Position numbers and translations under genes: made by a program
Notes under the pieces: generated by a model
Told to the model about the DNA's origin: nothing
What the model saw: only the letters and a program-made list of their open reading frames with translations
The model's database searches: none
Source: a plasmid
DNA length: 64,000 nucleotides
Sequence record: NZ_CP035506.1
Strand: one strand, 5' to 3'
Part shown: positions 10,438-29,299 of the stretch, in pieces
Layout: each line of letters starts with the position of its first letter
Numbering within the stretch: position 1 is the stretch's first letter

Positions 10438-11600
10438 CGGTGCAATCCCGCCCGACGGCATCCGAAACAGCCAGCGGCACGCCGGAACCGGTGCCCTTCT
10501 TCGGTATCGCGCGCGAGAATACCGCGCTGGAGGCCGAGCTGCTGCCCGAGATCTCGCGCATCCTGCGGGCGGGAGAGATGGTCAACAATGCCGATGTGCG
10601 CGCCTTCGAGGCAGGGGTGGCGGAGACGGCGGGACGGACCCATGCCATCGCGACCACCTCGGGCACGGATGCGCTGGCCTTCGCGCTGATGGCGCTCGGC
10701 ATCGGGCCGGGGGACGAGGTGATCGTGCCGGATTTCACCTTCATCGCCTCCGCCTCGGCGATCCTGCGCACCGGGGCGCGGCCGGTCTTCGCCGATATCG
10801 GAATGGGGGAGGCGGAGCGGGAGGAGGCGCCCTGCACCCTCGACCTCTCCGATGCCGAACGGCGGCTGACGCCGGCCACGCGGGCCATGGTCTGGGTCGG
10901 CCTGTTCGGCGGTATGGGCGACCCCGCTCCGGTGGAGGATTTCGCCCGCCGCCACGGGCTTTTGCTGGTCGAGGATGCCTCGCAGAACTTCGGCGCCGCC
11001 TGGCGGAACCGCCCTGCCGGGGGGATGGGGGATATCTCCAGCTTCAGCTTCGACCGGTTCAAGGTGCTCTCCGCGCTCGGCACCGGGGGGGCTGTCGTCA
11101 CCGATGACGGGGAGGTCGCGGCGCGGCTCCGCGCGTTGCGCTATCACGGGATGCACGAGGGGCAATCCCGCATGCTCGGCTTCAATTCGCAGATGCCCGC
11201 CATCACCGCCGCGGCGCTGAACGTCAAGCTCGGCCACCATGCGCGGTGGGTCGCGGAGCGGGCGGCCATTGCCGCGGCCTATGACGCGGGGCTTGCCGGC
11301 CTGCCGGTCACGCGGCTGTCCTGGCCGCGGGACTGCCACCATGTCTGGCACAAATACGTGCTGCTCGCCCCCGACCCGGATGCGCTGGCCGGTCACCTTG
11401 CCGCCCGCGGCATCGCCACCCGCCGCCATTATGCCCGCCCGCTCCACCGCGAGCCGGTCTTTGCCGCCTTTGCCGACGGGGCCGGTTATCCCGCGGCGGA
11501 GCGGCTGGCCGATGAGGTGCTGTCTCTGCCGATGCATGCCCAGCTCACCGGGGAGGAAGTCGCGCGGGTGATCGACGCGGTGACCGGCTTTTATGCCTGA
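10434..11600 (+). CDS. DegT/DnrJ/EryC1/StrS-family PLP-dependent sugar aminotransferase
   Basis: Motif HAIATTSGTDALAFALMALGIGPGDEVIVPDFTFIASA. The ATGA stop/start overlap with the upstream epimerase suggests translational coupling. Confidence 0.85.
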   Translation: MTVQSRPTASETASGTPEPVPFFGIARENTALEAELLPEISRILRAGEMVNNADVRAFEAGVAETAGRTHAIATTSGTDALAFALMALGIGPGDEVIVPDFTFIASASAILRTGARPVFADIGMGEAEREEAPCTLDLSDAERRLTPATRAMVWVGLFGGMGDPAPVEDFARRHGLLLVEDASQNFGAAWRNRPAGGMGDISSFSFDRFKVLSALGTGGAVVTDDGEVAARLRALRYHGMHEGQSRMLGFNSQMPAITAAALNVKLGHHARWVAERAAIAAAYDAGLAGLPVTRLSWPRDCHHVWHKYVLLAPDPDALAGHLAARGIATRRHYARPLHREPVFAAFADGAGYPAAERLADEVLSLPMHAQLTGEEVARVIDAVTGFYA

Positions 11601-11748
11601 CACCGGTATATCTGACACCGGTATCCCTGAGGCCGGGCCGGATCGGGGGCAGGACGCCAAGGCGGCCCGCCCCTGGGCCGGGGCAGAATTCGGCGCAGAA
11701 TGCGGGGCCGAATCCGGCGCAGAAGCGGGGCCGATCCACGACGCGCTG

Positions 11749-12807
11749 ATGATCGGCACCGGCCCGCCGATGCTGTTCCAGGCGATCGTGCTTGCCGAAG
11801 CCGGGCAGCGGGTGATCCTCGTCGATGCCGCATCGCGCCCGGGCGGGTCGTGGCACCTGCCCGAGGTGCTGGGCTACCGCTCGGTCGAGGTCGGTGTGCA
11901 TCTGATGGAGAACCGCGCCCATATCCACCGGGTGATCGAGAACCTGCTGCCGGAGGAGGAGATCCTCCGCGACACGCCGGATTTCGGCCTCTGGCGCGGG
12001 CGGCGCATTCCGATGCGGCTCACGCGGGTGCTGCTCCACGGGCTGGTGGCGGGGAAGTCCGCGCTCCGGGGAAAGCCGGAGAAGGCAGGCCATGCGTTCG
12101 CCAATGCCGGGCTGGCGCTGCGCCATCTCGGCCTGCCGATCCTTTATCCCCGGGGGGGATACAGCGCGGTCATGGCGGCGGCCCTGGCGCGGCTGGAGGC
12201 AGCGGGCGCGAGGGTGGTGCAGGACTGCCGGATCAAACGGATCCGTATCGGCCCGGCGGGCGTGCTGGCCGAAACCGCACGAGGCCCGGTCCGGGCGCGG
12301 AGGCTCGTCATGTCATCGCGCGCCCATGCGCCGATCGCGGGGATGGAGCCGCTCTGGCAGGATTGCCTGCGCCTCCGCACCTTCAGCGCCGTCCTGCATC
12401 TGGAGGGGCCGCCCCCCGGTTTCGCGGGTTATGTGGAGGTGATCGGGCACGGGGTGGTGAAGCGCGCCCGGAACGTCACCGCCTTTGCCGTGCCGGCCGT
12501 CGCGGCGGGCCGGTCGCTGGTCACGGTCCAGTTCCGCGATGATCCCCGGATTGCCGATCCCGCCACGCTGGGCGAAGAGGCGCGCGACTGGCTGGTGCGG
12601 CTCGGGCTTCTGGCGGCGGAAAGCCGGGTCATCGGCACGCACCGGGATGATTTCGATCTGGCGACCCTGCCCGCACGGGCGCTGGCCGCGATCGAGGCAC
12701 GTCACCCGGACCGGGTCACCGTGCTCAGGACGGTCGATCTCGGGGATCAGGGCTATGCCGTGGCGCCTGCTCCCGCCCGCCTGCCGGTTGCCCGCGCGCT
12801 TCCCTGA
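11749..12807 (+). CDS. FAD/NAD(P)-binding oxidoreductase (function unassigned)
   Basis: Dinucleotide-binding motif MIGTGPPMLFQAIVLAEAGQRVILVDAASRPGGSW. The ORF could instead start at 11593; that alternative N-terminus is low-complexity and includes a 13-bp direct repeat. Confidence 0.55.
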   Translation: MIGTGPPMLFQAIVLAEAGQRVILVDAASRPGGSWHLPEVLGYRSVEVGVHLMENRAHIHRVIENLLPEEEILRDTPDFGLWRGRRIPMRLTRVLLHGLVAGKSALRGKPEKAGHAFANAGLALRHLGLPILYPRGGYSAVMAAALARLEAAGARVVQDCRIKRIRIGPAGVLAETARGPVRARRLVMSSRAHAPIAGMEPLWQDCLRLRTFSAVLHLEGPPPGFAGYVEVIGHGVVKRARNVTAFAVPAVAAGRSLVTVQFRDDPRIADPATLGEEARDWLVRLGLLAAESRVIGTHRDDFDLATLPARALAAIEARHPDRVTVLRTVDLGDQGYAVAPAPARLPVARALP

Positions 12808-13357: not shown

Positions 13358-13702
13358 GGTTTCTTGGCTTTCCGGTCTGTCTGAGGGCCCAGGGGTCTTT
13401 GGGTTTGGGTCTTTCGGGAGTGGACCTTTTGAGGGCGGACCTTTTGGGGAAGGCAGGCGCGCCGCCCAGCATATCGCCGCGCGCCGCCGCCGTCAGCGGG
13501 CGCGCGCGCGACTTCAGCGGGCTCGCGCGCGACTATCGGTCACGACATGTCCCCTGCGGCGTTGCCGCGGAAGACCTGCCCGACCGCCCGTCAGACAGCC
13601 TGATGTTGCACCCCTCCGCCAGCGGGGACGCATCCCGCGTCCCGCTCGTCAGAGCACGACTGCCGCCGTGCCGGAACCTGGGGCCTGCAGTCGGAGCCGC
13701 CC

Positions 13703-13720: not shown

Positions 13721-14464
13721 TCAGGCCGTGGAGCCGCCGTCCACGGTGATGACGGTGCCGGAGACCTTGCCGCCGTCGGGGCCGAGCAGATACATCACCG
13801 CGACCGCCGCATCGTCCGGATCGGGCAGGCCGAGGGGGGCGCGGCGCTTGATCGAGTCCATCTTGTCCGACGGAATGCCGAGGCTCATCTCCGTGACCAT
13901 GTAGCCCGGCGCCACGCAGTTGACCGTGATCCCCCGCTTGCCGAGTTCGCGCGAGAGCGAGCGGGTGAACCCCTCCAGCCCCGCCTTGGTCGCCGCATAG
14001 GCGGCCAGCCCGTTGAACCCGGTGGAGGCGATGATCGAGGAGATCGAGATGATCCGCCCCGCCCGTGCCGAGAGCATGGAGCGGGAGGCGTATTTCGCGA
14101 AGACGATGGCGGAGGTGAGGTTCACGTCGATCATGTACTGGATGTCGGTCAGGTGCTGGGTGGCGAGCACCCCGTCCTTGCCGATGCCGGCATTGTTGAC
14201 CACGCCCCAGATCGGCCCGTGCCGGTCCACCGTCTCGCGGATGAAGGGGGGGATCGCGTCCAGATTGCTCACGTCGAACGGGTGGAACTCCACCTTGTCC
14301 GCGCCGTATTCGGCGATCAGCGCCTCATAGGCCGGGGTCAGCTTCCGCGACAGGCCGACGAGCCGGTAGGACGGATCCGCCGCCACCCGGCGGGCGATGG
14401 CAAGGCCCAGGCCTTGCGAGACACCGGTGACGATGACGGTCTTCAGGTTCGGCGGGGTCGTCAT
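13721..14464 (-). CDS. Short-chain dehydrogenase/reductase (3-oxoacyl-ACP reductase FabG-like)
   Basis: TGxxxGxG-type N-terminus (VIVTGVSQGLGLAIA), NNAG, catalytic YAATKAG. Confidence 0.85.
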   Translation of the reverse strand: MTTPPNLKTVIVTGVSQGLGLAIARRVAADPSYRLVGLSRKLTPAYEALIAEYGADKVEFHPFDVSNLDAIPPFIRETVDRHGPIWGVVNNAGIGKDGVLATQHLTDIQYMIDVNLTSAIVFAKYASRSMLSARAGRIISISSIIASTGFNGLAAYAATKAGLEGFTRSLSRELGKRGITVNCVAPGYMVTEMSLGIPSDKMDSIKRRAPLGLPDPDDAAVAVMYLLGPDGGKVSGTVITVDGGSTA

Positions 14465-14470
14465 GGGGGA

Positions 14471-16378
14471 TCAGGCCTTTGCTTGGGAACGGACGATCTT
14501 GCCGGCGGCATTCGTCTCCAGATGATCGGCGAAACGCCACATGGCGGGCACGGCCTCCCGTTCGAGATGGGCCTGTGCATGGGCCATGAGCTCCCGCTTC
14601 AGCGCCGCGCGGTCGGCGGCGGGGTCGGCGGGGACGATGGTGGCGACGAGCAGGTTGCCGGTGATCGGGCTGGATTTCGCCGTGACCTGGGCAAGGCTCA
14701 CCCGCGGATCGGCGGTCAGCACCGCCTCCACCCGTTCGGGATAGACCTTCACGCCGCCGACATTCACCACACCGCTGTCGCGGCCGAGGAAATGCACCCG
14801 CGCGCCCTCCGTATCGGGGCGGATCTCCACCTGGTCGCCGGTGCGGACATAGCCCTCCGCATCCATGTCGAGCTGGTTGTCCCCCAGATAGCGGGTCCGG
14901 TGCGCTTCGGGGGGACGGAGCCAGAGCATCCCCTCCTCCACCCGCATGGCAAGGCCGGCGGGGGCCTCGGCGGAGAGGTAGCTTTCGGGGAAGCCCGCCC
15001 GGCCGTCGTTTACGGCAAAGCCCACGCCGATCTCGGTCGAGGCATAGATATGGGTGACGCGGGCCTTGGGGAACCGCGCGCGGATCGCATCCAGCACCGG
15101 CTGTTCGGCGATCTCGCCGCCCAGCGTGATCTGGCGGAGGGACAGCCCCTCCACCCCCGGCGCCATGAGCAGCCGCCGCCAGAGCGTCGGCGTGGCGGAG
15201 AGATGGGTGACACCTGCCGCCGCCATCTCCGCGACCTGCTCCCCAAGGGCGGCGTCGCGGTCGATCGCGGCCAGCGTGCCGTGGCCGGTCATCGCCTGCA
15301 GCCCCACCTGCATCCCGGCAAAGCGGGTCATGTCGTAGAGCAGCCCCCAGACCGGCAGAGCCTCCGGCCGCGTTCCCCGAACGGACCGGGTGAGCGAGGC
15401 CACGCTATGGGTGACGATCTTCGGCACGCCGGTCGTACCCGAAGTGGTCATGAGCCAGGTTGTGGCGACGGGCGCTGTGGCGCCTGCCGGGCCACGCGCC
15501 GCCTCCGGGGTGAGGGTGGGGAGGGCGCCTCCGCTCCGGCCGGGAGCCGCGCCGGCCGGTGCCGATTGCGGGTGGCCGGACTGCGGAGAGCCGGACTGTG
15601 TAGGGTCGGATTGTGGGGATTCAGACTGCGGAGAGCCGGACTGCGGAGAGCCGGACTGCGGGGAGCCAGATTGCGGGGAGCCGGACTGTAAGGCGGAAGC
15701 CGCGGCAGTCGCGGTTGCGTTGACCGCTGATGCCGCTTCGGCGCTTGCCGCTCCGGGTGAGGGGGCAGCGGCGCTCGCCCTGCTCCCCTGCGCCGTTTCG
15801 GACGCCTCGGCGGCGGTTGTCCCGACGGTCAGCCCAAGAGTTGGCCCAGTGGTTGGCCCAGTGGTTGGCCCATTATTTGGCCCATTATTTGGTTCAGTAG
15901 TTGGCCCAGGGGTCAGCCCAGTGGTTGGCCCAGTGGTCACCCCCGTGGTTGGCCCCGTGGTCGCCGCAGCGGCTGGTCTGGCGCCACCGCCCGATACGGC
16001 GTCTTCCGGTGCGGCGTCTTCCAATGCGGAGGGAGCGGGCCGTGCTGCGAGAAGCTCCTCCCGGTCGGTAACGATATGGGTGATCCCCGCCACCCCCGCC
16101 AACGCCTCGACCACTTCGGGCGAGAAGCTGTAGGAGGCGAGCAGCAGCGCCTCCACCCCCCCGTCCAGCGCGACGAGCGTGCGCGCCAGCGCCCCTGTGT
16201 CGTGGATGGAGAGCAGAACGCGGGCCGAGGGCGGAAGCCCTTTCGGCCCCTCCGCCAGCGCCTCGGCGACGGTGATGTCGCGCGCGTTTTCCCGGATCAG
16301 CACATCCGTTCCCGGACGTGCCGCCAGCCGTTCCCTGAGTGTGGCCATTACTGCCCCGGCAAACCGTTCAGAAATCAT
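14471..16378 (-). CDS. ANL-superfamily acyl-CoA/acyl-ACP ligase (adenylating enzyme) with a large low-complexity insertion
   Basis: P-loop TSGTTGVPK, YASTEIG, linker YVRTGD and C-terminal lysine GKIVRS. About 190 aa of Gly/Pro/Thr/Ser-rich repeats lie between the N-terminal region and the P-loop. Confidence 0.8.
   Translation of the reverse strand: MISERFAGAVMATLRERLAARPGTDVLIRENARDITVAEALAEGPKGLPPSARVLLSIHDTGALARTLVALDGGVEALLLASYSFSPEVVEALAGVAGITHIVTDREELLAARPAPSALEDAAPEDAVSGGGARPAAAATTGPTTGVTTGPTTGLTPGPTTEPNNGPNNGPTTGPTTGPTLGLTVGTTAAEASETAQGSRASAAAPSPGAASAEAASAVNATATAAASALQSGSPQSGSPQSGSPQSGSPQSESPQSDPTQSGSPQSGHPQSAPAGAAPGRSGGALPTLTPEAARGPAGATAPVATTWLMTTSGTTGVPKIVTHSVASLTRSVRGTRPEALPVWGLLYDMTRFAGMQVGLQAMTGHGTLAAIDRDAALGEQVAEMAAAGVTHLSATPTLWRRLLMAPGVEGLSLRQITLGGEIAEQPVLDAIRARFPKARVTHIYASTEIGVGFAVNDGRAGFPESYLSAEAPAGLAMRVEEGMLWLRPPEAHRTRYLGDNQLDMDAEGYVRTGDQVEIRPDTEGARVHFLGRDSGVVNVGGVKVYPERVEAVLTADPRVSLAQVTAKSSPITGNLLVATIVPADPAADRAALKRELMAHAQAHLEREAVPAMWRFADHLETNAAGKIVRSQAKA
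15590..15690. repeat. About 7 imperfect copies of a 15-bp tandem repeat (GGACTGCGGAGAGCC), in-frame within the ligase gene
   Basis: Read directly in the sequence. Encodes (SGSPQ)n on the minus strand. Confidence 0.7.
15830..15960. repeat. About 10 imperfect copies of a 12-bp tandem repeat (GTGGTTGGCCCA), in-frame within the ligase gene
   Basis: Read directly in the sequence. Encodes (GPTT)n-like repeats on the minus strand. Confidence 0.7.
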
Positions 16379-16410: not shown

Positions 16411-16692
16411 TCAGACGGCGGGGCGGTACTTGTCGTAGAAGGCCACGAATTCCCCGAAGGTGCGGGGATAATAGGCATCCTCCGCGATGGTGAACGGGTC
16501 GTAGCCCAGCTCTTCCTCCAGGGTGGAGACGAAGATGGCGAAGCCCAGGCTGTCCAGCCCGCTTTCCAGCAGGACCGTATCGTCGTTCAGCTCCGGCGCG
16601 GGCTGGCCCGGCACTTCCACGTCCCAGACGTCATTGAAGACCTTGCGGATGGCGGAATTCAGGTCGGCATCCTTGTCCAAGATGGCGTTCAT
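16411..16692 (-). CDS. Acyl carrier protein
   Basis: 93 aa, acidic, with phosphopantetheine attachment motif LESGLDSLGF. Confidence 0.8.
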   Translation of the reverse strand: MNAILDKDADLNSAIRKVFNDVWDVEVPGQPAPELNDDTVLLESGLDSLGFAIFVSTLEEELGYDPFTIAEDAYYPRTFGEFVAFYDKYRPAV

Positions 16693-16737: not shown

Positions 16738-17193
16738 TCAGTGGGCGACGGGGCTGTCGTTGCCCTTGTCGAGACGGATGCCCCATTTGCTGGTGACGAT
16801 GTTCTGTTCCACGACCTTGCCCGGATTGCCCATCACGACGCTGTTCGGCGGCACATCGCGGACAACCACGGTGTTGGGAGAGATGATGCAGCCATCCCCC
16901 ACCTTCACTCCGGCAAGAATGATAGCGTTGAAGCCTAGAAAGCAATTGCTGCCCACGTAAGTGTCCTTCCACGTGCGGGTGACGAAGTCATGGGTCAGAA
17001 TTGCTGCACCGCCCGTAATCGCGGTGTAATCCCCGATATGCACACCCTTCGGGTTGGTCCGGTCCAGCCGCGCACCGCGCGAGATGCGGACATGCTCTCC
17101 CAGATCCATGCCATAGAGGTGGCGGTATTTGAATTCGGTGATTTTGACGAGGATCTTGAAGAGGCGGGTTCTGATTTGACTGAAACCTGACAC
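16738..17193 (-). CDS. Hexapeptide-repeat (LbH) acyl/acetyltransferase, WcaF-like
   Basis: Hexapeptide repeats (IGDYTAITGGAAIL, ILAGVKVGDGCIISPNTVV). Start uncertain: a GTG at 17193 matches WcaF-like length, but the ORF is open to 17340. Confidence 0.65.
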   Translation of the reverse strand: MSGFSQIRTRLFKILVKITEFKYRHLYGMDLGEHVRISRGARLDRTNPKGVHIGDYTAITGGAAILTHDFVTRTWKDTYVGSNCFLGFNAIILAGVKVGDGCIISPNTVVVRDVPPNSVVMGNPGKVVEQNIVTSKWGIRLDKGNDSPVAH

Positions 17194-17774
17194 GGGGGCG
17201 GCACTCTCAAAAAACAATGACTTGAGTCTGCCTAAACTTGGCAAAGTATACAAGGCACCTCTCCGCCTGAGAGGGTTGTATAGGCGGCAACGAGCCGTTT
17301 CCGGGGGGCGGAATGCCCGGAAAATTGTCTCGCATTCCATCCTTCCGGTTGCATTCCGCAGCGGGCAGCCTGCCGCGGTTTCCCTCCGGTGGGTCCCGGG
17401 GGATATCTGCCCCGTCCCCCTTCGCCGCGCCGATTCTGTTGCTGCAGTGCGGCATTAGCAGGCTTTTCGTGACGGGAGGAGGGAGAGACATCCCGTCCGC
17501 CGTGCTGGCTCTCCTGACTTGCCGGGCCGCCTCGAGCAGGCCGTTGCCGCAACGGGGGGAGGAGCGTACGCCCTGCCAACGCCTTGCTTACCCCGGAAGA
17601 GGTAGCTTGCCCGCTCATTGCACCGGATCCCGGTTTTCCGGGGTCCGCATCTGGGCAGGAGATGGAAATGGGACGGCAGCGGAAGCGAATCGCCCCCTGG
17701 CCGGGGATCACCCCGGCAGGCGGATATCCGAGGAAAACCACCCCGCGGCACGGGAAGCGGAGGCTCGGAACGGC

Positions 17775-20276
17775 ATGATCCATATCGGAACCTCCCTTAC
17801 CCGCCTGATCGGCGCCGGTCGCGGCGGCAGAAGCGTCACTCCCCCCGCAGAGCCGGAATTCTACCCGGACGTGCCGCCCGTTCCGCTGGCGGCGGCGGGA
17901 GGCTCGCTGAAATTCCCCGAAGGTAACTGGAACATGCATGCCGGGCGGGCGGGCCTGACCGGATGGAAGGGCCTGCTCCATCAGGGCTGGAGTGAGGTCT
18001 TTACCGGCTCCGGCACGCCCTCCGCGCTTTTCGCCATGGTGCGCCTGCCGGTGGACAAGCGGGACGGGCCTTATACAAAGGCAATCCTGGGGCGCGAGGG
18101 CAGCGGCGGAAACCGCATCCGGCTTGCCTATGGCAATCCGAACAACTCCTCCTCCGCCTCCCGCAACCGCTTTCAGGGCTATCAGTACGGCGCGGGGGGC
18201 GCGAGCGTGAACCTGCGCAGCGCTCCCTGGACGGAGGATGCGGCGCTGGTCGTCTTCTGGCATGACGGGACGGACCGGTGGGGGGTGGACTGGTACTCGC
18301 TCCTCGATGGGACGCACCATGCGGGGGAGGTCTCCAGCCTCACCGGGGTGAACCCCTCCGGTGCGGCCCTGTCGGGCTTTACCGTCGGGGGCGCGCAGAA
18401 CATGACGGCCTTCGCCACGGATACGAACCCGCTTGTCGAGGAGTTGTGGGATGGTGAAATTGCGCTCGTCGGCTATCTGAACGGCACGGTCGCTCCGGCG
18501 GAATGGGCCGCACTGGCCCGCGGCGCCCGTCCGCAGGATGTGCTGCCGGTCCCGGCCGTCCGCTGGATACGGGAGCTCGACGGCACGGCGGCCAGCCTTG
18601 CCGCCCCTGCCTGGGCCACGGCAGACCGGACCCGGCCCGCGGTGCCCGTCGCCGATGCCTCCCCCTCTGCCGGGGGGACGATGCTCCTTCCCGGATCGAC
18701 GCTCCGCCCGCAGTCGGCCACGCGCTTCGTCACCTTCGACCAGAGGTCGGCGGGCATGGTCTTCGGGCTGAAGCCGGGGGAGACCGTGGCATCGGTGCCC
18801 TTTGCGGGGCGCGCCTCCGGGCCGGTGGAGATCCGCGTGTTCGAGGCGGAGACCGGCAGGATCGTCCGCGACTGGGTGCCGATGCCCCTTCCGGCGGCCC
18901 CGGAGACCGGCATCTGGAGCGGGCGGGTATCGCTGCCGGAAAGCGCGAACGGCTGGCTTTTCGCCGATGCGCGGCTGGTGGGCGCCCCCGAGGTGGTGGC
19001 CCATGCGCGCAGCGAATTCGGCGTGGGCTACAAGTTCATGATCATGGGGCAGAGCCAGACGGCGATGCCCATGGTGAACATGACGACACGGCTCGCGCTG
19101 GAACCGGGGGCGGCGATGAGCGGCTCTGTCGCGACGCTGGTCAATCTCGGCCTGCGGCGGATCCTCGGCGCGGAGGCGCGGCGTCCGGTGATGGGGCGGA
19201 TCGGCACGGGCGTGGGATATGCGCCGAGCGATGGTTTCGTGACCTTCCTGAACCAGTTCCGCCGGTTGAAGCCGAAGACCCCGGTCATGATCCTCAACGA
19301 GGCGGTCTCCGGTACTTCCATGCGCGCGCTTCTGGCGGGAGAGGTCGATACGGCCACCGACCGGCAATGGGCCGACATCACCGACAAGCTGGATCTCTGG
19401 GGACGGGATGTGACGGCGGTGCTGTGGAACTGGCTGATGAACGAGGGTGCGATGAACGGCAGCAATGTCGTGCCGCTCATGTCGGCGATGTTCCTGCCCG
19501 GTCACGCAGGCGACATGGCCCATTCGCTGGTGCAGGATCTGGAGCCGGGCTGGACGCTCGGCGTGCTGGGCGGCGACCGGGAAAGCCGGATCATCGGGCG
19601 GGAGGGGATGCGCGCGGCCCGCACCGCCTTTGCCCATGACAACGGTTTCACGCTGGGGCCGGTCGTTTCCGATTACCGGATCGAGAATGCAGGCGGCCCG
19701 CATCCGGGCAAGCAGTTCACCAATCCCGGCATCCTGGGCTATACGCCCCCCGAAACCTTCGATCACGGCATCCCCCGCTTCATGCAGCGCATGGGGGTGA
19801 TGGCGCTCCAGACGATCGGCGGGCTTTCCGATGTGGAAGTGCATCCCTGCTACGCCAATCCCCGGTTCAGCGCCGATCGGAGGAAGATCCTCATCGACGT
19901 GGTGGCGGTGAACGGGGGCCGGATCTACAGCCCCGCGCCCACTGCGCTCAGATCGTGGTATGTGAAGGAGGAAGGCGATCTTTCCTTCGTCAGTACGGGG
20001 GAGAAAGGCGCCCAGGCCGTGCTCAACACCTCTGTCAGCCCGCCGCAGGTGGAGATCACCCGCGCCTCCGGGACCTGGGCGCCGGGCGTTGTCGTGCAGC
20101 GCATGGACGATGGTGAGAAGCGGGCCGACAACGATGGCGCGGCCGAGGATACGATCCATGCGGGCGGCCTCTATGAAGCCTGGGCGCAGGATCCGCTGGG
20201 ATTCGGCTTCCCCGTGGTGGGCATGCGGGATGACAGCGGTCTCTGGCGCAATCTGTTTGAAAGTATTGTTTCCTAA
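17775..20276 (+). CDS. Large protein, paralogue A: ConA/LamG-like N-terminal region plus putative SGNH/SASA-like esterase core (GQSQ motif)
   Basis: Shares long conserved blocks with ORF 26714..29203 (GVGYKFMIMGQSQT, VTAVLWNWLMNEGAMNG, MSAMFLPGHAGDMAHSL, HAGGLYEAWAQDPLGFGFPVVGM). First ATG at 17775; the ORF is open upstream to 17313. No clear signal peptide. Confidence 0.6.
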   Translation: MIHIGTSLTRLIGAGRGGRSVTPPAEPEFYPDVPPVPLAAAGGSLKFPEGNWNMHAGRAGLTGWKGLLHQGWSEVFTGSGTPSALFAMVRLPVDKRDGPYTKAILGREGSGGNRIRLAYGNPNNSSSASRNRFQGYQYGAGGASVNLRSAPWTEDAALVVFWHDGTDRWGVDWYSLLDGTHHAGEVSSLTGVNPSGAALSGFTVGGAQNMTAFATDTNPLVEELWDGEIALVGYLNGTVAPAEWAALARGARPQDVLPVPAVRWIRELDGTAASLAAPAWATADRTRPAVPVADASPSAGGTMLLPGSTLRPQSATRFVTFDQRSAGMVFGLKPGETVASVPFAGRASGPVEIRVFEAETGRIVRDWVPMPLPAAPETGIWSGRVSLPESANGWLFADARLVGAPEVVAHARSEFGVGYKFMIMGQSQTAMPMVNMTTRLALEPGAAMSGSVATLVNLGLRRILGAEARRPVMGRIGTGVGYAPSDGFVTFLNQFRRLKPKTPVMILNEAVSGTSMRALLAGEVDTATDRQWADITDKLDLWGRDVTAVLWNWLMNEGAMNGSNVVPLMSAMFLPGHAGDMAHSLVQDLEPGWTLGVLGGDRESRIIGREGMRAARTAFAHDNGFTLGPVVSDYRIENAGGPHPGKQFTNPGILGYTPPETFDHGIPRFMQRMGVMALQTIGGLSDVEVHPCYANPRFSADRRKILIDVVAVNGGRIYSPAPTALRSWYVKEEGDLSFVSTGEKGAQAVLNTSVSPPQVEITRASGTWAPGVVVQRMDDGEKRADNDGAAEDTIHAGGLYEAWAQDPLGFGFPVVGMRDDSGLWRNLFESIVS

Positions 20277-20887: not shown

Positions 20888-23101
20888 ATGGCGATCAAAC
20901 TTGTAGATTCGGTTGATGATTTGCTTTCGGCTCTTCGCGTCGTGAAGGGCGGAGATACGATCCTTCTGGAAGATGGAGATTATGGATATCTCTACCTTTC
21001 CAGTGGCTTGAAAGGGCAGCTTCCGGAGTATGACAGTACCGTCACAATTGCGGCGCTCAATCCGGGAAAAGCGACCTTCTCCAAGATGGATGTGCGCGGA
21101 GCCAGCAATCTGGCTTTCGAGGGCCTCGATGTCTCCAACTCACTGCAGATCTGGTATAATTCCAGCAATGTGGCGGTCAGAAATTCCACCATCACCAACC
21201 TGACCGTTCGCGATACACAAGGTGCGGACATTTCCGGCAATACGATTGGCGGGGGGAGCTTCGGCCTTGTCCTGCAGGCGGCTTCCGATGTGTCTGTCCG
21301 GGGCAACTATATTCATGATGTGACCACCGATCTGGTTCGGATCGTCGGAAACAGCCATGACGTCGTGGTCGAGAACAACCTTATCTCCGATACGGTCGCC
21401 CGCCCGCCGACCCACCCCGATCTCATCCAGATGTTCGGCCTGAACGGGGCGACGCCGCATGACATCACGATCCGCGGCAATATCCTGCACGACGATCTCT
21501 CCACAGGATCGGTGAGACCTCAGGGCATCTTCATGAACGGCCCGATGGGGGCCACTGGGTTCCAGGATATCCTGATCGAACAGAACCTTATCTGGACGCA
21601 GCATATCAACACGATCTATATCAACGGGGCGGACGGGAATTTCGTCATCCGTGACAATTCCATGATCGCCACGCAGTGGAGCAACGGCGCCAATATCCGT
21701 CTCGCCGGCTGGAACAACGAAGGCATCAGCGTCACCGGCAACGTCTCCCGTGCCATCGGGGACGAGGGGAACGGGACGACGGCCTGGAACAACTACAATT
21801 TCGGGACCGGCAAGTGGTTCAACGCCACCGGCGATCAGACCGACATCTTCCAGAGCCCGCAGTATATCGGCTGGAAGAGCTTCCTGCCTGTCGCCGGATC
21901 GGCCATTGATTTTGGCAGCGGCTACGGCGCTCAGGGAAGGCTGAAGGAACTGCTGGCGGGCGTGGACAACGACTTCGGTGTGACACGCCTGGTAATGGAG
22001 GAAACGGATAACCTCAGCCTCAAGGGGCACAGCAAATCCTGGTTCCGCTTCGCCGACGGCGGCACGCTCGACCTCGACGAGGCGACGGTTTCGCTGACCT
22101 TCTCGGCCAATTCCGCCTCTGGAGCGCGCACCATCCTGTCAAAGGATTCCGCCGGTCTCGATCATGGTTTCTCGGCGACGGTGAACAGCGGAACGCTCAC
22201 CCTCCGCTTTGAGGATGACAGCGGGATCAAGACCATCGTCCATGACGGGATTGCCGCGAAAACCGATTACAATCTCGTCATGTCCTTTGACGATGGCAAG
22301 GCGACGGCCTGGCTGAACGGCCAATCCATCGGGCAGGTGGAGACCGGGATGGACTGGTCCAAGAACGGCTCCGATCTGATCCTCGGCGCCGATGGAGGGC
22401 TTTCAAAATACGGGCCGAGGTCGTTCTTTTCAGGCACCGTCGGAGATCTGCGCATCTATGACCAGGGAATGACGTACAGTCAGCTTTCGGCCCATGTCGA
22501 TGCGCGGGAAAGCTATCTCGCGGCGGTGGAGGCGGCCAAGGACACCTCGCATACGGTATTTTATCACGGCGGGATCACCGACTTCAAAAACACGGTGAGG
22601 GATGCCATCGTCACCGAGACGGATGACAAGTTCTCCACGACGGAAGGAACCGTGGCGCTGAACTTCCGTCCCGAACTGGTCAATGGCGGAAGGGGCCTCG
22701 TCTCACGGGATTCCACCGGGCTGGGGGATGGATTCCACATCGCCATCAGCAACGGCAGCCTCGTCGTCAAATTCGAGGATGACGACGGCACGCAAGCGCT
22801 CCGGTACGAAGGCATCGAACGCTACAAGGATTATTCCGTCGTGGCGAGCTTTGGAAATGGTGTCGCGGATGTGTGGGTGAACAACACGCATCTCGGCCAG
22901 GTCGAGACCAATATGGACTGGACCGACAATTCCGACAGCCTCATTCTGGGAGCGTTGAACTCCAACAGTGCGGCCGGGACGACCTCTGCGATGCACGGGG
23001 CATATTTCGGCGCGCTCAACGGGGTTCTGGTCGTGGACGAAAGCATGACGCCACAGGAGCTGGCAGCCTATATCGACGCCCATCCCCTCATTCTCGTCTG
23101 A
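20888..23101 (+). CDS. Right-handed parallel beta-helix (pectate-lyase-fold) protein with two C-terminal LamG-like domains; candidate secreted EPS glycanase/lyase
   Basis: N-terminal repeats (NSTITNLTVRDTQGADISGNTIGGG, VRGNYIHD, VVENNLISD) typical of beta-helix CAZymes. Two divergent concanavalin-like repeats at the C-terminus. No N-terminal signal peptide. Paralogue of ORF 29300..31594. Confidence 0.75.
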   Translation: MAIKLVDSVDDLLSALRVVKGGDTILLEDGDYGYLYLSSGLKGQLPEYDSTVTIAALNPGKATFSKMDVRGASNLAFEGLDVSNSLQIWYNSSNVAVRNSTITNLTVRDTQGADISGNTIGGGSFGLVLQAASDVSVRGNYIHDVTTDLVRIVGNSHDVVVENNLISDTVARPPTHPDLIQMFGLNGATPHDITIRGNILHDDLSTGSVRPQGIFMNGPMGATGFQDILIEQNLIWTQHINTIYINGADGNFVIRDNSMIATQWSNGANIRLAGWNNEGISVTGNVSRAIGDEGNGTTAWNNYNFGTGKWFNATGDQTDIFQSPQYIGWKSFLPVAGSAIDFGSGYGAQGRLKELLAGVDNDFGVTRLVMEETDNLSLKGHSKSWFRFADGGTLDLDEATVSLTFSANSASGARTILSKDSAGLDHGFSATVNSGTLTLRFEDDSGIKTIVHDGIAAKTDYNLVMSFDDGKATAWLNGQSIGQVETGMDWSKNGSDLILGADGGLSKYGPRSFFSGTVGDLRIYDQGMTYSQLSAHVDARESYLAAVEAAKDTSHTVFYHGGITDFKNTVRDAIVTETDDKFSTTEGTVALNFRPELVNGGRGLVSRDSTGLGDGFHIAISNGSLVVKFEDDDGTQALRYEGIERYKDYSVVASFGNGVADVWVNNTHLGQVETNMDWTDNSDSLILGALNSNSAAGTTSAMHGAYFGALNGVLVVDESMTPQELAAYIDAHPLILV

Positions 23102-26713: not shown

Positions 26714-29203
26714 TCAGGGGGCTGCGAGACGCATCTCGAACAGCGGACGCCAGCGGCCCTTGCCGTCCTTCATGCCGACTACGGGAAATCCGAAGCCCAA
26801 CGGATCCTGTGACCAGCTTTCATAGATGCCGCCTGCGTGGATCGCATCTTCGGCCGCGCCATCCTTGTCGGGGCGCTTCTCGCCGTCGTCCATGCGGCGG
26901 ACGAGCGTGCCGGCGGGCCAGAGCCCGGTGGCCCGTGTGATCCTGACCTGCGGGGGGGTGACGGAGGTGTCGAGTTCGGCGATCGCCCCCAGCGCGATGG
27001 TGGGAACGAAGGCCGCGTCCTTCCCCGGCTCCTTCACATACCACGATCTGAGCGCAGTAGGCGCGGGGCTGTAGATCCGGCCCCCGTTCACCGCCACCAC
27101 GTCGATGAGGATATGTCTCCGGTCCCTGGTCAGGCGGGCATTGGCGTAATGGGGGTGCACGGCGGTATCCGGGATCTCGCCGATCGTCTGGAGCGCCATC
27201 ACCGCCAGCCGCTGCATGAAGCGGGCGCTGCCATGGTCGAATGTCTCCGGCGGGCCGTAACGGCCCTGTTCGGGAGTGTTGAACTGCGCCGGAGGATGCG
27301 CCCCGCCGCTGTCGCCGATCCGGTAGTCCGAAACGACCGGCCCCAGCGTGAAGCCGTGCTGCTGGGCAAAGGCCGCGCGGGCCGCGCGCATCCCCTCCCG
27401 CCCGTTGACGCGGCTTTCCCGGTCGCTGGCCAGCACGCCGAGCGTCCAGCCCGGCTCCAGCTCGGCCGTCAGCGAATGGGCCATGTCGCCTGCGTGACCG
27501 GGCAGGAACATCGCCGACATGAGCGGCGCCACGTTCTTGCCGTTCATCGCGCCCTCGTTCATCAGCCAGTTCCACAGCACCGCCGTCACATCCCGTCCCC
27601 AGAGGTCCAGCTTGTCGGTGATGTCGGCCCATTGCCGGTCGGCCCGGGTGGTTTCCCCCCCGAGCAGCCGTGCCATGGAGGTGCCGCCCACGGCCTCGTC
27701 GATCAGCATGAAGGGGGTGCCGGGTTTCAGGCGGCGGAACTGGTTCAGGAAGGCGACGACCCCGTCGCCCCCCGCCTGCGGGCCGGCCCCGATCCGGCCC
27801 ATGACGGGCCGGCGCGCCGCATCGCCCAGCTCCTCCCGCGCTCCCAGCGCAAGGAGCCGGGCCACGGAGCCTGACATGGGCGCGTCGGGGGTGAGCCGCC
27901 GGGTCGTGTTGTCGAGCGGATAGGACGTCTGGCTCTGTCCCATGACGAGGAACTTGTAGCCCACGCCGAATTCGCTGCGTGCATGGGCGATCACCCCGGG
28001 CGCTTCCGCCAGCCGCGCATCGGCAAAGAGCCAGCCGGCCTCGCTTTCGGGAAGCGGCAGGCTCCCCGACCAGCGGTTGCCCTGCAGCGGTCCCATCGGG
28101 GTCCAGTCCTGCACCACCTTGCCCGTGGCCGCCTCGATGACGCGAAGCTCCACCGGGCCGGAGGCCTCGCCCGAGAAGGGCACGTCTCTCTCGCGCTCTC
28201 CCCGGTGCAGGCCGAAGACCATCCCCGCCGATTTCTGCTCAAGGGTGACATATTCCGTCTCCGACTGGCGGCGGAGGGTCGAGCCGGGAGTCGTTGCTTC
28301 GGGAGCGGCGGCGGTTTCCGCCACGCTGGCGGTGGGTGCCGTGCCCTCTCCCGGAGCGGGGGAGAGGCTGCCGGGTGTTCCGTCGAATTCCCGCAGGAAG
28401 GTGAGGTCCGCGGCGGGCAGCACGGCCCGGAACGGCGCGCCGCGGGCGATGCGCGACCAGTCCTCCGGGGGGGGAAGCGGCCCGGTGACGATGCCGACGG
28501 CGCCGATTTCCCCGTCCCACAAAGGGTCACGCCCCGGATTGGCCGGCCCCCCGAAAGCGGTGAGGCTGCCCCAGCCGCCGATGTTGAAAGGCGCGATCTC
28601 CCCGCTGTCCGTGACCCCGGTATCCGTGAGGGGTGGCCCGGGATGGCGGTCGCCGGTCCGGGGGGAATACCAGTCGATCTGCCATGTGCCCGTCCCGTCG
28701 TGCCAGAAGACGACAAGGGCCGCCTCCTCGTCCCAGAGGGCGCTTGCCAGGTCCACGGCGCTGCCCCGCCCTCCCATCTGGGAGGCGGTGAAACGGTTGC
28801 GGAGTTCGGGGACGGAATGTCCGGGATTGCCCAGGCCCAGCCGGAACCGGTTCCCGCCCTTGCCCGCATGGCCCATGATCCCCTTCGTCAGCCGTCCGTC
28901 GCGCTTGTCGAGCGGCAGGCGCAGAAGGGCGAAGATCGCCTGCGGACGCCCCGATCCGGCCAGGGCGATGCCCTGCCCGGGCTGAAGCAGCAGGCCCCGC
29001 CCCGCCCGGTCGGATGTCCAGTTTCCTTCCGGGAAGCGGACCGATCCGCCGGGAGCGCCGGGATCGACGGCCGGAACCGGCGGATAGGGGGAGGCGGCGG
29101 AGAGCGAAGCCCCCCCGGCAAGGCCCATGAGCAGCGCGAGTGCAAGACACCGGCGGAAGCGGCGCAGAAAGGCGGAAGGCGTCATGAAGGCGGAGGGTGT
29201 CAT
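26714..29203 (-). CDS. Large secreted protein, paralogue B of 17775..20276 (SGNH/SASA-like core, GQSQ motif)
   Basis: Signal peptide LALALLMGLAGGASLSAASP. The same conserved blocks as paralogue A. The start region contains an 18-bp tandem duplication encoding MTPSAF twice. Confidence 0.65.
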   Translation of the reverse strand: MTPSAFMTPSAFLRRFRRCLALALLMGLAGGASLSAASPYPPVPAVDPGAPGGSVRFPEGNWTSDRAGRGLLLQPGQGIALAGSGRPQAIFALLRLPLDKRDGRLTKGIMGHAGKGGNRFRLGLGNPGHSVPELRNRFTASQMGGRGSAVDLASALWDEEAALVVFWHDGTGTWQIDWYSPRTGDRHPGPPLTDTGVTDSGEIAPFNIGGWGSLTAFGGPANPGRDPLWDGEIGAVGIVTGPLPPPEDWSRIARGAPFRAVLPAADLTFLREFDGTPGSLSPAPGEGTAPTASVAETAAAPEATTPGSTLRRQSETEYVTLEQKSAGMVFGLHRGERERDVPFSGEASGPVELRVIEAATGKVVQDWTPMGPLQGNRWSGSLPLPESEAGWLFADARLAEAPGVIAHARSEFGVGYKFLVMGQSQTSYPLDNTTRRLTPDAPMSGSVARLLALGAREELGDAARRPVMGRIGAGPQAGGDGVVAFLNQFRRLKPGTPFMLIDEAVGGTSMARLLGGETTRADRQWADITDKLDLWGRDVTAVLWNWLMNEGAMNGKNVAPLMSAMFLPGHAGDMAHSLTAELEPGWTLGVLASDRESRVNGREGMRAARAAFAQQHGFTLGPVVSDYRIGDSGGAHPPAQFNTPEQGRYGPPETFDHGSARFMQRLAVMALQTIGEIPDTAVHPHYANARLTRDRRHILIDVVAVNGGRIYSPAPTALRSWYVKEPGKDAAFVPTIALGAIAELDTSVTPPQVRITRATGLWPAGTLVRRMDDGEKRPDKDGAAEDAIHAGGIYESWSQDPLGFGFPVVGMKDGKGRWRPLFEMRLAAP

Positions 29204-29299
29204 GAAAACAGGCTCCTTTCCCAGCCTTTATGACGCAGCCTCACTCGCTTTCAAGGCGAATGAGGCTGAGTGTTTCACCTATCGCGAGATCGTGCGACG

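What the first reader, a model, noticed from the sequence alone, without database searches (positions are those of the whole stretch)
15560..15990. Roughly 190-aa low-complexity insertion encoded by 12-bp and 15-bp tandem repeats inside an adenylating enzyme
Between the N-terminal region and the P-loop (TSGTTGVPK) of the ANL ligase, the gene carries about 10 copies of GTGGTTGGCCCA (giving GPTT/GPNN repeats) and about 7 copies of GGACTGCGGAGAGCC (giving SGSPQ repeats). Such in-frame microsatellite-like arrays inside the core of a metabolic enzyme are unusual. They are expected to expand and contract by slipped-strand mispairing (length variation but no frameshift, since both unit lengths are multiples of 3). 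They could act as a flexible linker or as a phase- or length-variable region.
Basis: seen in the sequence. Interest (0 to 1): 0.65.

Follow-up and report, generated by a model that had tools for sequence, protein, structure and literature searches.

The report
Hypervariable disordered repeat loop in ligase
A Haematobacter enzyme that probably activates an acid for decorating a surface sugar polymer carries a floppy loop of about 170 amino acids, encoded by short in-frame DNA repeats that gain and lose whole units between near-identical strains; it is a clear example of a known phenomenon and most likely a tolerated passenger rather than a new mechanism.

Summary
The minus-strand gene 14471-16378 encodes a 635-aa ANL (adenylate-forming) enzyme. 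About 170 aa sit between its N-terminal subdomain and the P-loop TSGTTGVPK. This stretch contains a 12-bp array (10.2 copies, PTTG/PNNG) and a 15-bp array (7.6 copies, SPQSG). No codon shuffle reproduces either array.

The insertion is confined to one Haematobacter clade (91-169 aa). All other orthologues are 305-482 aa and join the same two anchor points with a short linker.

The copy number varies. The window differs from a 21.9-kb metagenome contig by 4 substitutions and exactly one 15-bp unit. Two H. missouriensis-like contigs differ from the isolate genome by no substitutions and exactly one 15-bp unit. Every indel in the gene is in-frame and lies inside the insertion.

AlphaFold2 gives pLDDT below 50 and no secondary structure for aa 127-277, while the enzyme core scores above 90. 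The flanks evolve under purifying selection (dN/dS about 0.1) whether or not the insertion is present. One close relative has an intact gene with almost no insertion.

Best reading: a slippage-generated, intrinsically disordered, largely passenger loop at the family's permissive linker before the P-loop. It is length-variable but not phase-variable. It is a new member of a known kind, of modest interest.

The parts
14471..16378 (-). ANL (class I adenylate-forming) enzyme gene, 635 aa. The true start may be Met11 (ATG at 16348), because most orthologues begin MTTLRE.
   Evidence: ORF list. Pfam AMP-binding and AMP-binding_C above cut-off. Foldseek matches to PchD, MenE and CytC1 with target-normalised TM 0.64-0.71. 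Alignments A1 and A2.
16028..16378 (-). Folded N-terminal subdomain, aa 1-117, upstream of the insertion.
   Evidence: pLDDT 91-98 for aa 11-110. Conserved in all orthologues. The N-terminal region of the insertion-free orthologue P0011 aligns to malonyl-CoA ligase 3nyq from residue 10.
15521..16027 (-). Lineage-specific low-complexity insertion, aa about 118-286. The boundaries are fuzzy: hmmalign places 172 aa at 15482-15997, and the pLDDT<50 segment aa 127-277 is 15548-16000. Composition is 83-84% A/G/P/T/S/Q.
15997..16029 (-). 15-bp mini-repeat, 2.2 copies (LEDAAPEDA). One copy is missing in locus L010.
   Evidence: TRF. DNA alignment.
15840..15961 (-). 12-bp in-frame array, 10.2 copies (PTTG/PNNG units). 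It is 60 bp shorter in L010 and 84 bp shorter in H. massiliensis L004.
15689..15839 (-). Non-repetitive Ala/Ser/Thr/Gly-rich spacer between the two arrays. It contains a 6-bp indel relative to L004.
15575..15688 (-). 15-bp in-frame array, 7.6 copies (SPQSG units). The unit at about 15647-15661 is absent from three otherwise identical contigs, L001-L003. L004 has 10.7 copies.
15419..15445 (-). P-loop / A3 motif TSGTTGVPK (aa 312-320), downstream of the insertion.
   Evidence: Sequence. T311-T315, G317 and K320 are invariant and T316 and P319 nearly invariant among 116 homologues.
16411..16692 (-). Acyl carrier protein, 93 aa, immediately upstream. It is the presumed acceptor of the activated acyl group.
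   Evidence: Pfam PP-binding. Conserved synteny in all related loci.
16738..17340 (-). Hexapeptide-repeat (left-handed beta-helix) acyltransferase, first gene of the cassette. The start codon is uncertain: 151-200 aa are called in relatives.
   Evidence: Pfam Hexapep. NCBIfam matches to sugar and other O/N-acetyltransferases. Synteny.
13721..14464 (-). FabG-like short-chain dehydrogenase, 247 aa, immediately downstream. It is the last gene of the cassette.
   Evidence: Pfam adh_short. NCBIfam 3-oxoacyl-ACP reductase families below cut-off. Synteny.

Best explanation
The segment is a young, lineage-specific, intrinsically disordered loop. It was created, and is continually remodelled, by replication slippage or unequal recombination of in-frame 12-bp and 15-bp minisatellites. 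It sits in the linker that joins the N-terminal subdomain of an ANL adenylating enzyme to the strand carrying the P-loop.

Shown:
- The arrays exist and are in frame.
- Copy number changes by whole units between near-clonal sequences.
- The insertion is restricted to the Haematobacter clade.
- The same linker is the family's indel-prone site.
- The loop is predicted to be disordered while both flanks fold with confidence.
- The flanks stay under purifying selection.

Inferred:
- In orthologues the two anchor points are joined by only a few residues. The loop must therefore bulge out from a surface without changing the fold.
- Its composition is like Pro/Ala/Ser random coils, uncharged and non-hydrophobic. 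This makes it an inert, soluble random coil.
- It is therefore mostly a tolerated passenger. It changes protein length between strains but is not needed for adenylation.
- The enzyme itself most likely activates a small carboxylic acid and loads it on the adjacent carrier protein. After reduction by the neighbouring dehydrogenase, the hexapeptide acyltransferase would transfer the acyl group to an amino sugar of a surface polysaccharide.
For: - Arrays and significance.
- One-unit polymorphism, first case: window versus L001 has 4 mismatches and one 15-bp gap in 21.9 kb. Window versus L003 has 0 mismatches and the same gap in 6.3 kb.
- One-unit polymorphism, second case, in another species: L094 and L095 versus H. 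missouriensis L007 have 0 mismatches over 4.0 and 3.2 kb and one extra 15-bp unit.
- Window versus H. massiliensis L004 over 22 kb: 13 indels. The four in the gene (84, 30, 15 and 6 bp) all lie in the insertion and all are in frame. There are no indels in the other 1401 nt of the gene.
- At least five length alleles (635, 630, 624, 624 and 615 aa) occur among genes at least 99.5% identical in the flanks.
- Restricted distribution: only the two Haematobacter genomes among the 80 best loci from 185,579 species genomes have it. Among the best 150 cluster representatives from 1.84 billion proteins, only the Haematobacter cluster (623 aa) exceeds 482 aa.
- The linker is the family's indel site. Inserts of 0-26 aa occur there in other genera, and apart from one 9-aa insert in L082 no other site has an insert of 8 aa or more. 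Other members carry short low-complexity expansions there.
- Disorder: pLDDT below 50 and no secondary structure for aa 127-277, while most of the folded core scores above 90.
- Youth and weak selection on the sequence: GC3 is 0.67 against 0.84 in the flanks. CCA and CCT Pro codons occur 12 times in the insertion and never in the flanks. Between species, amino-acid identity is 49-51% in the insertion against 94% in the flanks. Arrays differ in unit, position and copy number between species and are absent in L008.
- The enzyme is maintained: flank dN/dS is 0.09-0.14 with or without the insertion, and the catalytic motifs are invariant.
- Dispensability: L005/P0011 has an intact gene in the same cassette with only 3-7 extra residues. 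It groups with the 95-aa allele L008 at 81% bootstrap, inside the insertion-bearing clade.
- Cassette and polysaccharide context.
Against: - Total insertion length stays within 144-169 aa, and composition within 82-86% A/G/P/T/S/Q, in both named species. This holds despite about 50% sequence turnover and different arrays. It hints at some selection to keep a long uncharged coil, which pure neutrality with a bacterial deletion bias would not predict.
- No biochemical data exist.
- Disorder rests on one AlphaFold2 model and on composition.
- The one-unit differences come from assemblies, not from reads.
- The tree that makes L005 a secondary loss is a neighbour-joining tree of one gene, with 81% support for the key node and only 29% for its sister clade. 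Recombination is possible.
Confidence: 0.72

Rival explanations
1. The insertion is a functional spacer or tether. A long uncharged random coil is kept by selection, for example as an entropic bristle that improves solubility. It could instead act as a spacer that gates carrier-protein docking, or as a tether to the membrane polysaccharide-assembly machinery. On this view slippage only supplies the raw material.
For: Length (144-169 aa) and composition (82-86% A/G/P/T/S/Q) are retained in H. massiliensis-like and H. missouriensis-like lineages although the sequence is only about 50% identical and the arrays differ. The reading frame is always kept.
Against: - The insertion is absent from every other genus carrying the same four-gene cassette.
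- A close relative, L005, keeps an intact gene under equal purifying selection with almost no insertion, and L008 has only 95 aa.
- There is no conserved motif inside the insertion, and its codon usage is poor.
Confidence: 0.17
2. The insertion is a graded contingency locus. Frequent in-frame length changes would tune the activity or amount of the ligase, and so the degree of polysaccharide acylation. This would give heritable, reversible surface variation under phage or immune pressure. It would be a rheostat counterpart of the on/off poly-A switch in Vibrio cholerae wbeL.
For: The gene lies in a surface-polysaccharide locus. It is the main indel hot spot in 22 kb. One-unit changes separate otherwise identical sequences in two species. 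In V. cholerae O1, the tetronate-synthesis gene wbeL of the O-antigen locus is a proven contingency locus selected by phage (PMC3441752). That WbeL is an acyl-CoA-ligase-like protein is my own recollection, not something I tested here.
Against: All alleles are in frame, so nothing is switched off. The arrays are imperfect (78-79% matches), which lowers slippage rates. There is no evidence that the length of a disordered surface loop alters activity. Homology of this enzyme to WbeL was not tested.
Confidence: 0.07
3. The insertion is an assembly artefact: the repeats or their copy-number differences were produced by misassembly.
For: Most sources are short-read assemblies, and reads could not be inspected.
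Against: The insertion is present and in frame in isolate genomes of two species and in many independent metagenome assemblies. The 630-aa allele is identical in three unrelated samples. The arrays are 53-170 bp, about the length of a single read or less. The indels are exact unit multiples.
Confidence: 0.02
4. The insertion is a foreign or embedded element: an inserted folded domain, an intein, a mobile element, or a gene on the opposite strand (plus-strand ORF 15390-16133, with CGEPD and VVGP repeats).
For: An open 247-aa antisense frame exists in the window. Folded domains are known to interrupt adenylation domains between motifs a2 and a3 (PMC11355689).
Against: The full protein matches only the two AMP-binding Pfam families. 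The insertion has no predicted secondary structure. The antisense frame carries stop codons in H. missouriensis and in L008, whereas the sense frame is open in all. The units are not dispersed elsewhere in the window.
Confidence: 0.02

Closest known systems
Intragenic (coding) variable-number tandem repeats in bacteria, for example the polymorphic in-frame repeats of Legionella pneumophila genes (Coil et al. 2008, PMC2639597)
   Same: Head-to-tail units whose length is a multiple of three. Copy number differs between strains. The presumed mechanism is slipped-strand mispairing or unequal recombination. The result is a protein length polymorphism without frameshift.
   Different: From my own knowledge, such repeats are best known in surface or secreted proteins. 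Here two different arrays and a mini-repeat sit in one loop of a cytoplasmic adenylating enzyme, and together they form a disordered segment of about 170 aa.
Interrupted adenylation domains of nonribosomal peptide synthetases (TioN and MarQ, with a methyltransferase inserted between motifs a2 and a3; PMC11355689)
   Same: A large extra segment lies between the N-terminal part of the adenylation fold and the A3 P-loop motif, with the adenylation fold left intact. This shows that the region tolerates large insertions.
   Different: Those insertions are folded catalytic domains with structured connections. This one is repetitive, low-complexity and predicted to be disordered, with no recognisable domain. 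The enzyme is a free-standing ligase, not a synthetase module.
Vibrio cholerae O1 wbeL, a phase-variable tetronate-synthesis gene in the O-antigen locus (PMC3441752)
   Same: A hypermutable repeat tract lies in a gene of a cassette that acylates a surface-polysaccharide amino sugar. From my own knowledge, not tested here, WbeL is an acyl-CoA-ligase-like protein, and the tetronate genes also include a carrier-protein-like gene and an acetyltransferase-like gene.
   Different: wbeL has an A8 homopolymer that frameshifts and truncates the protein (on/off). Here the units are 12 and 15 bp and never break the frame. Sequence relatedness to WbeL was not tested.
Low-complexity flexible linkers in bacterial proteins: Q-linkers, Pro/Thr linkers of glycoside hydrolases, Ala/Pro linkers of 2-oxoacid dehydrogenase E2 (from my own knowledge)
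   Same: P/T/S/Q/A/G-rich, uncharged, extended and poorly conserved in sequence. Often variable in length.
   Different: Those connect independently folding domains and are usually 15-50 aa. This one is a loop whose two ends return to the same domain, it is 3-10 times longer, and it is absent from nearly all orthologues.
Low-complexity insertions inside conserved enzymes of Plasmodium and other eukaryotes (from my own knowledge)
   Same: Lineage-specific, slippage-derived, disordered loops inserted at surface positions of otherwise conserved enzymes. They evolve fast and are thought to be largely neutral.
   Different: Those occur in eukaryotic, AT-rich genomes with Asn/Lys-rich tracts. Here the host is a 70% G+C alphaproteobacterium, where such large insertions in enzymes are uncommon.

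Membership tests
ANL superfamily (class I adenylate-forming enzymes) | AMP-binding N-terminal domain and AMP-binding C-terminal domain detected above curated thresholds | tested here: met
   PF00501 scores 68 bits (cut-off 29.9). PF13193 scores 37 bits (cut-off 24.5).
ANL superfamily (class I adenylate-forming enzymes) | Core motifs: P-loop T[ST]G[ST]TGxPK, YxSTE, and the C-terminal catalytic Lys | tested here: met
   TSGTTGVPK at aa 312-320, YASTE at aa 445-449, GK at aa 626-627. Invariant or nearly so among 116 homologues.
ANL superfamily (class I adenylate-forming enzymes) | Two-domain ANL fold | tested here: met
   The AlphaFold2 core has pLDDT above 90. Foldseek top hits are PchD, MenE, CytC1, 4-chlorobenzoyl-CoA ligase and MatB, with E about 1e-20 and target-normalised TM up to 0.71.
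o-Succinylbenzoate-CoA ligase MenE (the name some databases give the Haematobacter orthologues) | Score above the equivalog cut-off | tested here: not met
   TIGR01923 scores 85 bits against a cut-off of 330. NF005877 scores 60 against 345.
o-Succinylbenzoate-CoA ligase MenE (the name some databases give the Haematobacter orthologues) | Menaquinone-operon genomic context | tested here: not met
   The neighbours are a carrier protein, a hexapeptide acyltransferase, a dehydrogenase, and aminotransferase, glycosyltransferase and mannose-1-phosphate guanylyltransferase genes.
Coding variable-number tandem repeat (intragenic minisatellite) | Head-to-tail repeated units beyond chance | tested here: met
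   TRF scores 125-155. 0 of 5000 codon shuffles reach the observed value, and the arrays lie 9-10 SD above the window background.
Coding variable-number tandem repeat (intragenic minisatellite) | Unit length a multiple of 3 and the reading frame preserved in all alleles | tested here: met
   Units are 12 and 15 bp. All 10 or more alleles are open in the sense frame.
Coding variable-number tandem repeat (intragenic minisatellite) | Copy number differs between closely related strains | tested here: met
   One-unit differences between sequences with 0-4 substitutions in 3-22 kb, in two species. Differences of 5 and 7 units in the 12-bp array.
Coding variable-number tandem repeat (intragenic minisatellite) | Elevated mutation rate within a lineage | not testable with these tools
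   This needs reads, passaging or fluctuation tests.
Phase-variable contingency locus (on/off) | A repeat tract whose length changes shift the reading frame or the promoter spacing | tested here: not met
   All units and all observed indels are multiples of 3, and there are no out-of-frame alleles.
Interrupted adenylation domain | Insertion located between motifs a2 and a3 | tested here: inconclusive
   The insertion ends about 20 aa before the A3 P-loop and follows the N-terminal subdomain. The a2 motif was assigned only by eye to about aa 66-84 and was not tested with a motif model.
Interrupted adenylation domain | The inserted segment is a folded auxiliary catalytic domain (methyltransferase, ketoreductase or oxidase) | tested here: not met
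   The full protein matches no other Pfam family. The insertion has pLDDT below 50 and no secondary structure.
Intrinsically disordered region | Low-complexity, low-hydrophobicity composition and no predicted structure | tested here: met
   A/G/P/T/S/Q make up 83-84%. There are 10 hydrophobic and 11 charged residues in 172. pLDDT is 27-39 across aa 131-280.
Intrinsically disordered region | Experimental disorder (NMR, SAXS, CD or protease sensitivity) | not testable with these tools

The most novel reading that the evidence does not exclude
The in-frame arrays form a graded 'rheostat' contingency locus. Frequent gain and loss of 4-aa and 5-aa units in a disordered loop next to the P-loop would tune the activity, stability or complex assembly of the acyl-carrier-loading ligase. 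That would set the degree of N-acylation of a surface polysaccharide. Haematobacter populations would then have heritable, reversible, quantitative antigen and phage-receptor variation without ever switching the pathway off.
Probability: 0.07. Interest if true: 0.6.

Novelty: new member of a known kind. Interest (0 to 1): 0.3.

Why it matters
This is an unusually clean natural series for studying how low-complexity disordered loops arise and turn over inside a conserved bacterial enzyme. The alleles carry 3, 91 and 144-169 extra residues in otherwise 93-100% identical proteins. Single-unit steps are caught between near-clonal genomes.

It marks the linker before the P-loop as a site that tolerates very large insertions in free-standing ANL ligases. 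That is useful for engineering, and it parallels the interrupted adenylation domains of peptide synthetases.

It offers a ready-made strain-typing marker for Haematobacter, an occasional human pathogen.

It also flags a probable misannotation. Databases call this protein 2-succinylbenzoate-CoA ligase, but score and context indicate a carrier-protein-loading ligase of a polysaccharide-acylation cassette.

Unless length turns out to affect the surface polysaccharide, it does not change our understanding of ANL enzymes or of repeat biology.

Tried and rejected
- Exact-sequence look-ups of the window protein and of P0004 found no record. The window allele of 635 aa is therefore not itself in the collection.
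- A megablast of the cassette against plasmids gave only a 77% hit to a Qingshengfaniella dehydrogenase gene. I ran it because H. massiliensis OT1 has nine plasmids (PMC6498234). It yielded no long-read allele.
- An exact 23-nt flank pattern found nothing in metagenome contigs. The follow-up protein scan gave two H. missouriensis-like contigs.
- I rejected a gene on the opposite strand, because the antisense frame has stop codons in relatives.
- I rejected a dispersed repeat element, because the units are unique to this gene within the window.
- I rejected a collagen-like reading, because the period is 4 or 5 residues rather than 3.
- I rejected the MenE identity given by some databases.
- The model's coordinates are not exposed, so I could not measure the distance between the loop anchors. 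Their closeness is inferred from the short linkers of orthologues.
- I did not search with the insertion peptide alone. Low-complexity matches would be uninformative, and the search is costly.
Full report
**What is there.** The finding lies in a minus-strand gene, 14471-16378, that encodes a 635-aa protein. Pfam places AMP-binding at aa 298-457 and AMP-binding_C at aa 550-627. The P-loop TSGTTGVPK is aa 312-320, nt 15419-15445. Tandem Repeats Finder reports a 15-bp array at 15575-15688 (7.6 copies, 78% matches). It also reports a 12-bp array at 15840-15961 (10.2 copies, 79% matches) and a 2.2-copy 15-bp repeat at 15997-16029. Read in frame, the arrays are PTTG/VTTG/LTPG/PTTE/PNNG units and SPQSG/SPQSE/SPQSD/PTQSG/HPQSA units.

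**More than chance.** Identity at lag 12 and lag 15 is 0.79. The highest values anywhere else in the 64-kb window are 0.52 and 0.50. None of 5000 codon shuffles of the insertion reaches the observed values. The unit sequences occur only here in the window. These are the strongest tandem arrays in the window. The insertion is about 170 aa rather than 190, and it spans roughly 15521-16027, which is wider than the stated coordinates.

**Whose gene it is and who has the insertion.** The closest proteins come from Haematobacter massiliensis, H. genomosp. 1 and H. missouriensis (600-635 aa) and from metagenomes.
- All other orthologues listed are 400-503 aa and lack the segment.
- A scan of one genome per species (185,579 species) found 232 relatives in many phyla. 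Among the best 80 loci, only the two Haematobacter genomes match across all 635 residues.
- I aligned the loci to a profile built from insertion-free members. Extra residues in the linker before the P-loop number 153-173 in Haematobacter-like sequences and 95 in metagenome loci L008 and L009. Two Pirellulaceae genomes have 26, and everything else has 11 or fewer. Apart from one 9-aa insert in L082, no other position in the protein has an insert of 8 aa or more.
- Other members show small low-complexity expansions at the same linker, such as PPAKPPAKTPATPP in P0081 and G/A/D-rich tracts in P0015 and P0017.
- Among the 150 best cluster representatives from 1.84 billion proteins, only the Haematobacter cluster (623 aa) exceeds 482 aa.

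The linker is therefore the family's permissive, indel-prone site, and Haematobacter is its extreme.

**Copy-number change seen directly.** Window versus contig L001 (JGI sample 3300011828) shows 4 mismatches and a single 15-bp gap over 21,908 aligned columns. Window versus L003 shows 0 mismatches and the same gap over 6.3 kb. The gap is exactly one SPQSG unit inside the run of perfect copies, at window positions about 15647-15661. The 630-aa allele is identical in three unrelated samples.

A second, independent case lies in the other species. Contigs L094 and L095 match H. missouriensis L007 with 0 mismatches over 4.0 and 3.2 kb, but they carry one extra 15-bp QSGPQ unit.

Against H. massiliensis L004, 22 kb shows 175 mismatches and 13 indels. 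The four indels in the gene (84, 30, 15 and 6 bp) all fall in the insertion and all are in frame. L010 differs by 60 bp in the 12-bp array and by 15 bp in the mini-repeat. The remaining 1401 nt of the gene have no indel. There are at least five length alleles (635, 630, two different 624s, and 615 aa) among genes at least 99.5% identical in the flanks.

**Turnover between species.**
- H. massiliensis L004 has 10.7 copies of the 15-bp unit and almost no 12-bp array.
- H. missouriensis has 2.8 copies of a 12-bp unit, a different 12/24-bp array, and 3.5 copies of the 15-bp unit.
- L008 has no detectable array.
- Between the two species, amino-acid identity is 49-51% in the insertion and 94% in the flanks. 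Length (144-169 aa) and A/G/P/T/S/Q content (82-86%) stay similar.
- The insertion has GC3 of 0.67 against 0.84 in the flanks. It uses CCA and CCT Pro codons 12 times, and the flanks never use them. This fits recent amplification of a few seed units.

**Structure.** An AlphaFold2 model built with 116 sequences gives pLDDT 91-98 for aa 11-110 and mostly above 90 from aa 291 onward. For aa 127-277 it gives pLDDT below 50 and no secondary structure. The model matches ANL enzymes over the whole fold: PchD, MenE, CytC1, 4-chlorobenzoyl-CoA ligase and MatB. The insertion-free orthologue aligns to solved ANL enzymes by sequence, including its N-terminal part. Orthologues join the same two anchor points with a handful of residues, so the loop must leave and re-enter the domain at nearly the same place. 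This is an inference, because I could not read the coordinates.

**Is the enzyme still functional, and is the loop needed?** The catalytic motifs are invariant. Flank dN/dS is 0.09-0.14 both for insertion-bearing lineages and for the insertion-free L005. L005/P0011 (455 aa, 3-7 extra residues) is an intact gene in the same cassette. In a codon-based neighbour-joining tree rooted with P0012, it pairs with the 95-aa allele L008 at 81% bootstrap. That pair sits inside the clade whose other members carry the insertion. The simplest reading is a secondary loss, which would be a natural deletion variant. The tree covers one gene, has weak deeper nodes, and recombination is possible.

**Context.** The gene is third in a conserved four-gene cassette: hexapeptide acyltransferase, carrier protein, ANL, FabG-like dehydrogenase (synteny). 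The cassette sits in a surface-polysaccharide locus. That locus contains mannose-1-phosphate guanylyltransferase, a DegT-type aminotransferase, a nucleotide-sugar epimerase/dehydratase, a GT4 glycosyltransferase, two acyltransferase-3 proteins and beta-helix proteins. In other strains the same cassette sits beside different polysaccharide genes.

I infer that the ligase loads a small acid onto the carrier protein for N-acylation of an amino sugar. This resembles the tetronate genes of Vibrio cholerae O1 (PMC3441752). That those genes include a carrier-like protein, a ligase-like protein and an acetyltransferase-like protein is my own recollection. The database name '2-succinylbenzoate-CoA ligase' fails the equivalog cut-off (85 against 330 bits) and does not fit the context.

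**Mechanism and rivals.** The best-supported account is a slippage- or recombination-driven, in-frame minisatellite region. It encodes an inert random-coil loop at a permissive site and is mostly a passenger (confidence about 0.7).
- A selected spacer or tether is the main rival, because length and composition are retained across species.
- A graded contingency role is possible but unsupported.
- On/off phase variation is excluded, because every unit and every indel is a multiple of three.
- Misassembly is very unlikely, given more than ten independent in-frame assemblies and arrays shorter than a read.
- An antisense gene is rejected, because stop codons interrupt it in relatives.
- A folded inserted domain is rejected as well.

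**Comparison with known things.** This is a member of the known class of polymorphic intragenic tandem repeats in bacteria (PMC2639597). It sits in the same stretch before the A3 P-loop where interrupted adenylation domains carry a methyltransferase (between a2 and a3; PMC11355689). Unlike those, it encodes no folded domain, and its a2 motif was placed only by eye. It resembles low-complexity linkers and the disordered insertions of Plasmodium enzymes (my own knowledge). Such a large example inside a bacterial cytoplasmic enzyme is uncommon but not new in kind.

**Verdict.** It is a new member of a known kind. Interest is 0.3.

Noticed in passing
window 13479-13534: A 21-bp tandem repeat (2.0-2.6 copies) lies in the intergenic region between the VanZ-like gene and the dehydrogenase gene. 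The window has one more 21-bp unit than H. massiliensis L004, so this non-coding array is also copy-number polymorphic.
   Followed up: partly
window 11679-11734 (in the gene 11593-12807, + strand): A 24-bp in-frame tandem repeat (2.4 copies, with a 12-bp sub-period) encodes GAEF-GAEC-GAES-GAEA. It lies in the N-terminal extension of a 404-aa protein with a weak flavin amine-oxidase-type match. This is a second gene of the same locus with a low-complexity repeat of 4-aa period. No length difference from L004 was seen.
   Followed up: partly
window 17775-20276 (+) and 26714-29203 (-), with 20888-23101 (+) and 29300-31594 (-): Two paralogous proteins of about 830 aa have no Pfam match and are about 77% identical at the nucleotide level over 1.5 kb. 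Each lies near a right-handed beta-helix protein. This looks like a duplicated two-gene module in opposite orientation within the polysaccharide locus.
   Followed up: partly
window 14471-16378 and database entries P0005 and P0007: Public annotations call the Haematobacter orthologues '2-succinylbenzoate-CoA ligase' or 'long-chain-fatty-acid-CoA ligase'. The MenE equivalog score is 85 bits against a cut-off of 330, and the context is a polysaccharide cassette with its own carrier protein. The name is probably wrong.
   Followed up: yes
P0081 (metagenome protein, 503 aa, 58% identical): A distant orthologue has its own low-complexity repeats. One is at the N-terminus (GQGAEKDTP GQGAEGDTP GQGAGSG) and one is in the same linker before the P-loop (PPAKPPAKTPATPPAETAP). 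This shows recurrent independent expansion at this site.
   Followed up: partly
loci L005 and L093 compared with window 4471-26378: The four-gene cassette (hexapeptide acyltransferase, carrier protein, ANL, dehydrogenase) is flanked by different polysaccharide genes in different Haematobacter-like strains. L005 and L093 have a Polysacc_synt flippase and a pyruvyl transferase. The window has the 833-aa and beta-helix proteins. The cassette therefore behaves as a portable module within a variable locus.
   Followed up: no
window 29169-29206: An 18-bp tandem repeat (2.1 copies, 90% matches) lies at the 5' end of the 829-aa paralogue gene. I did not examine it further.
   Followed up: no
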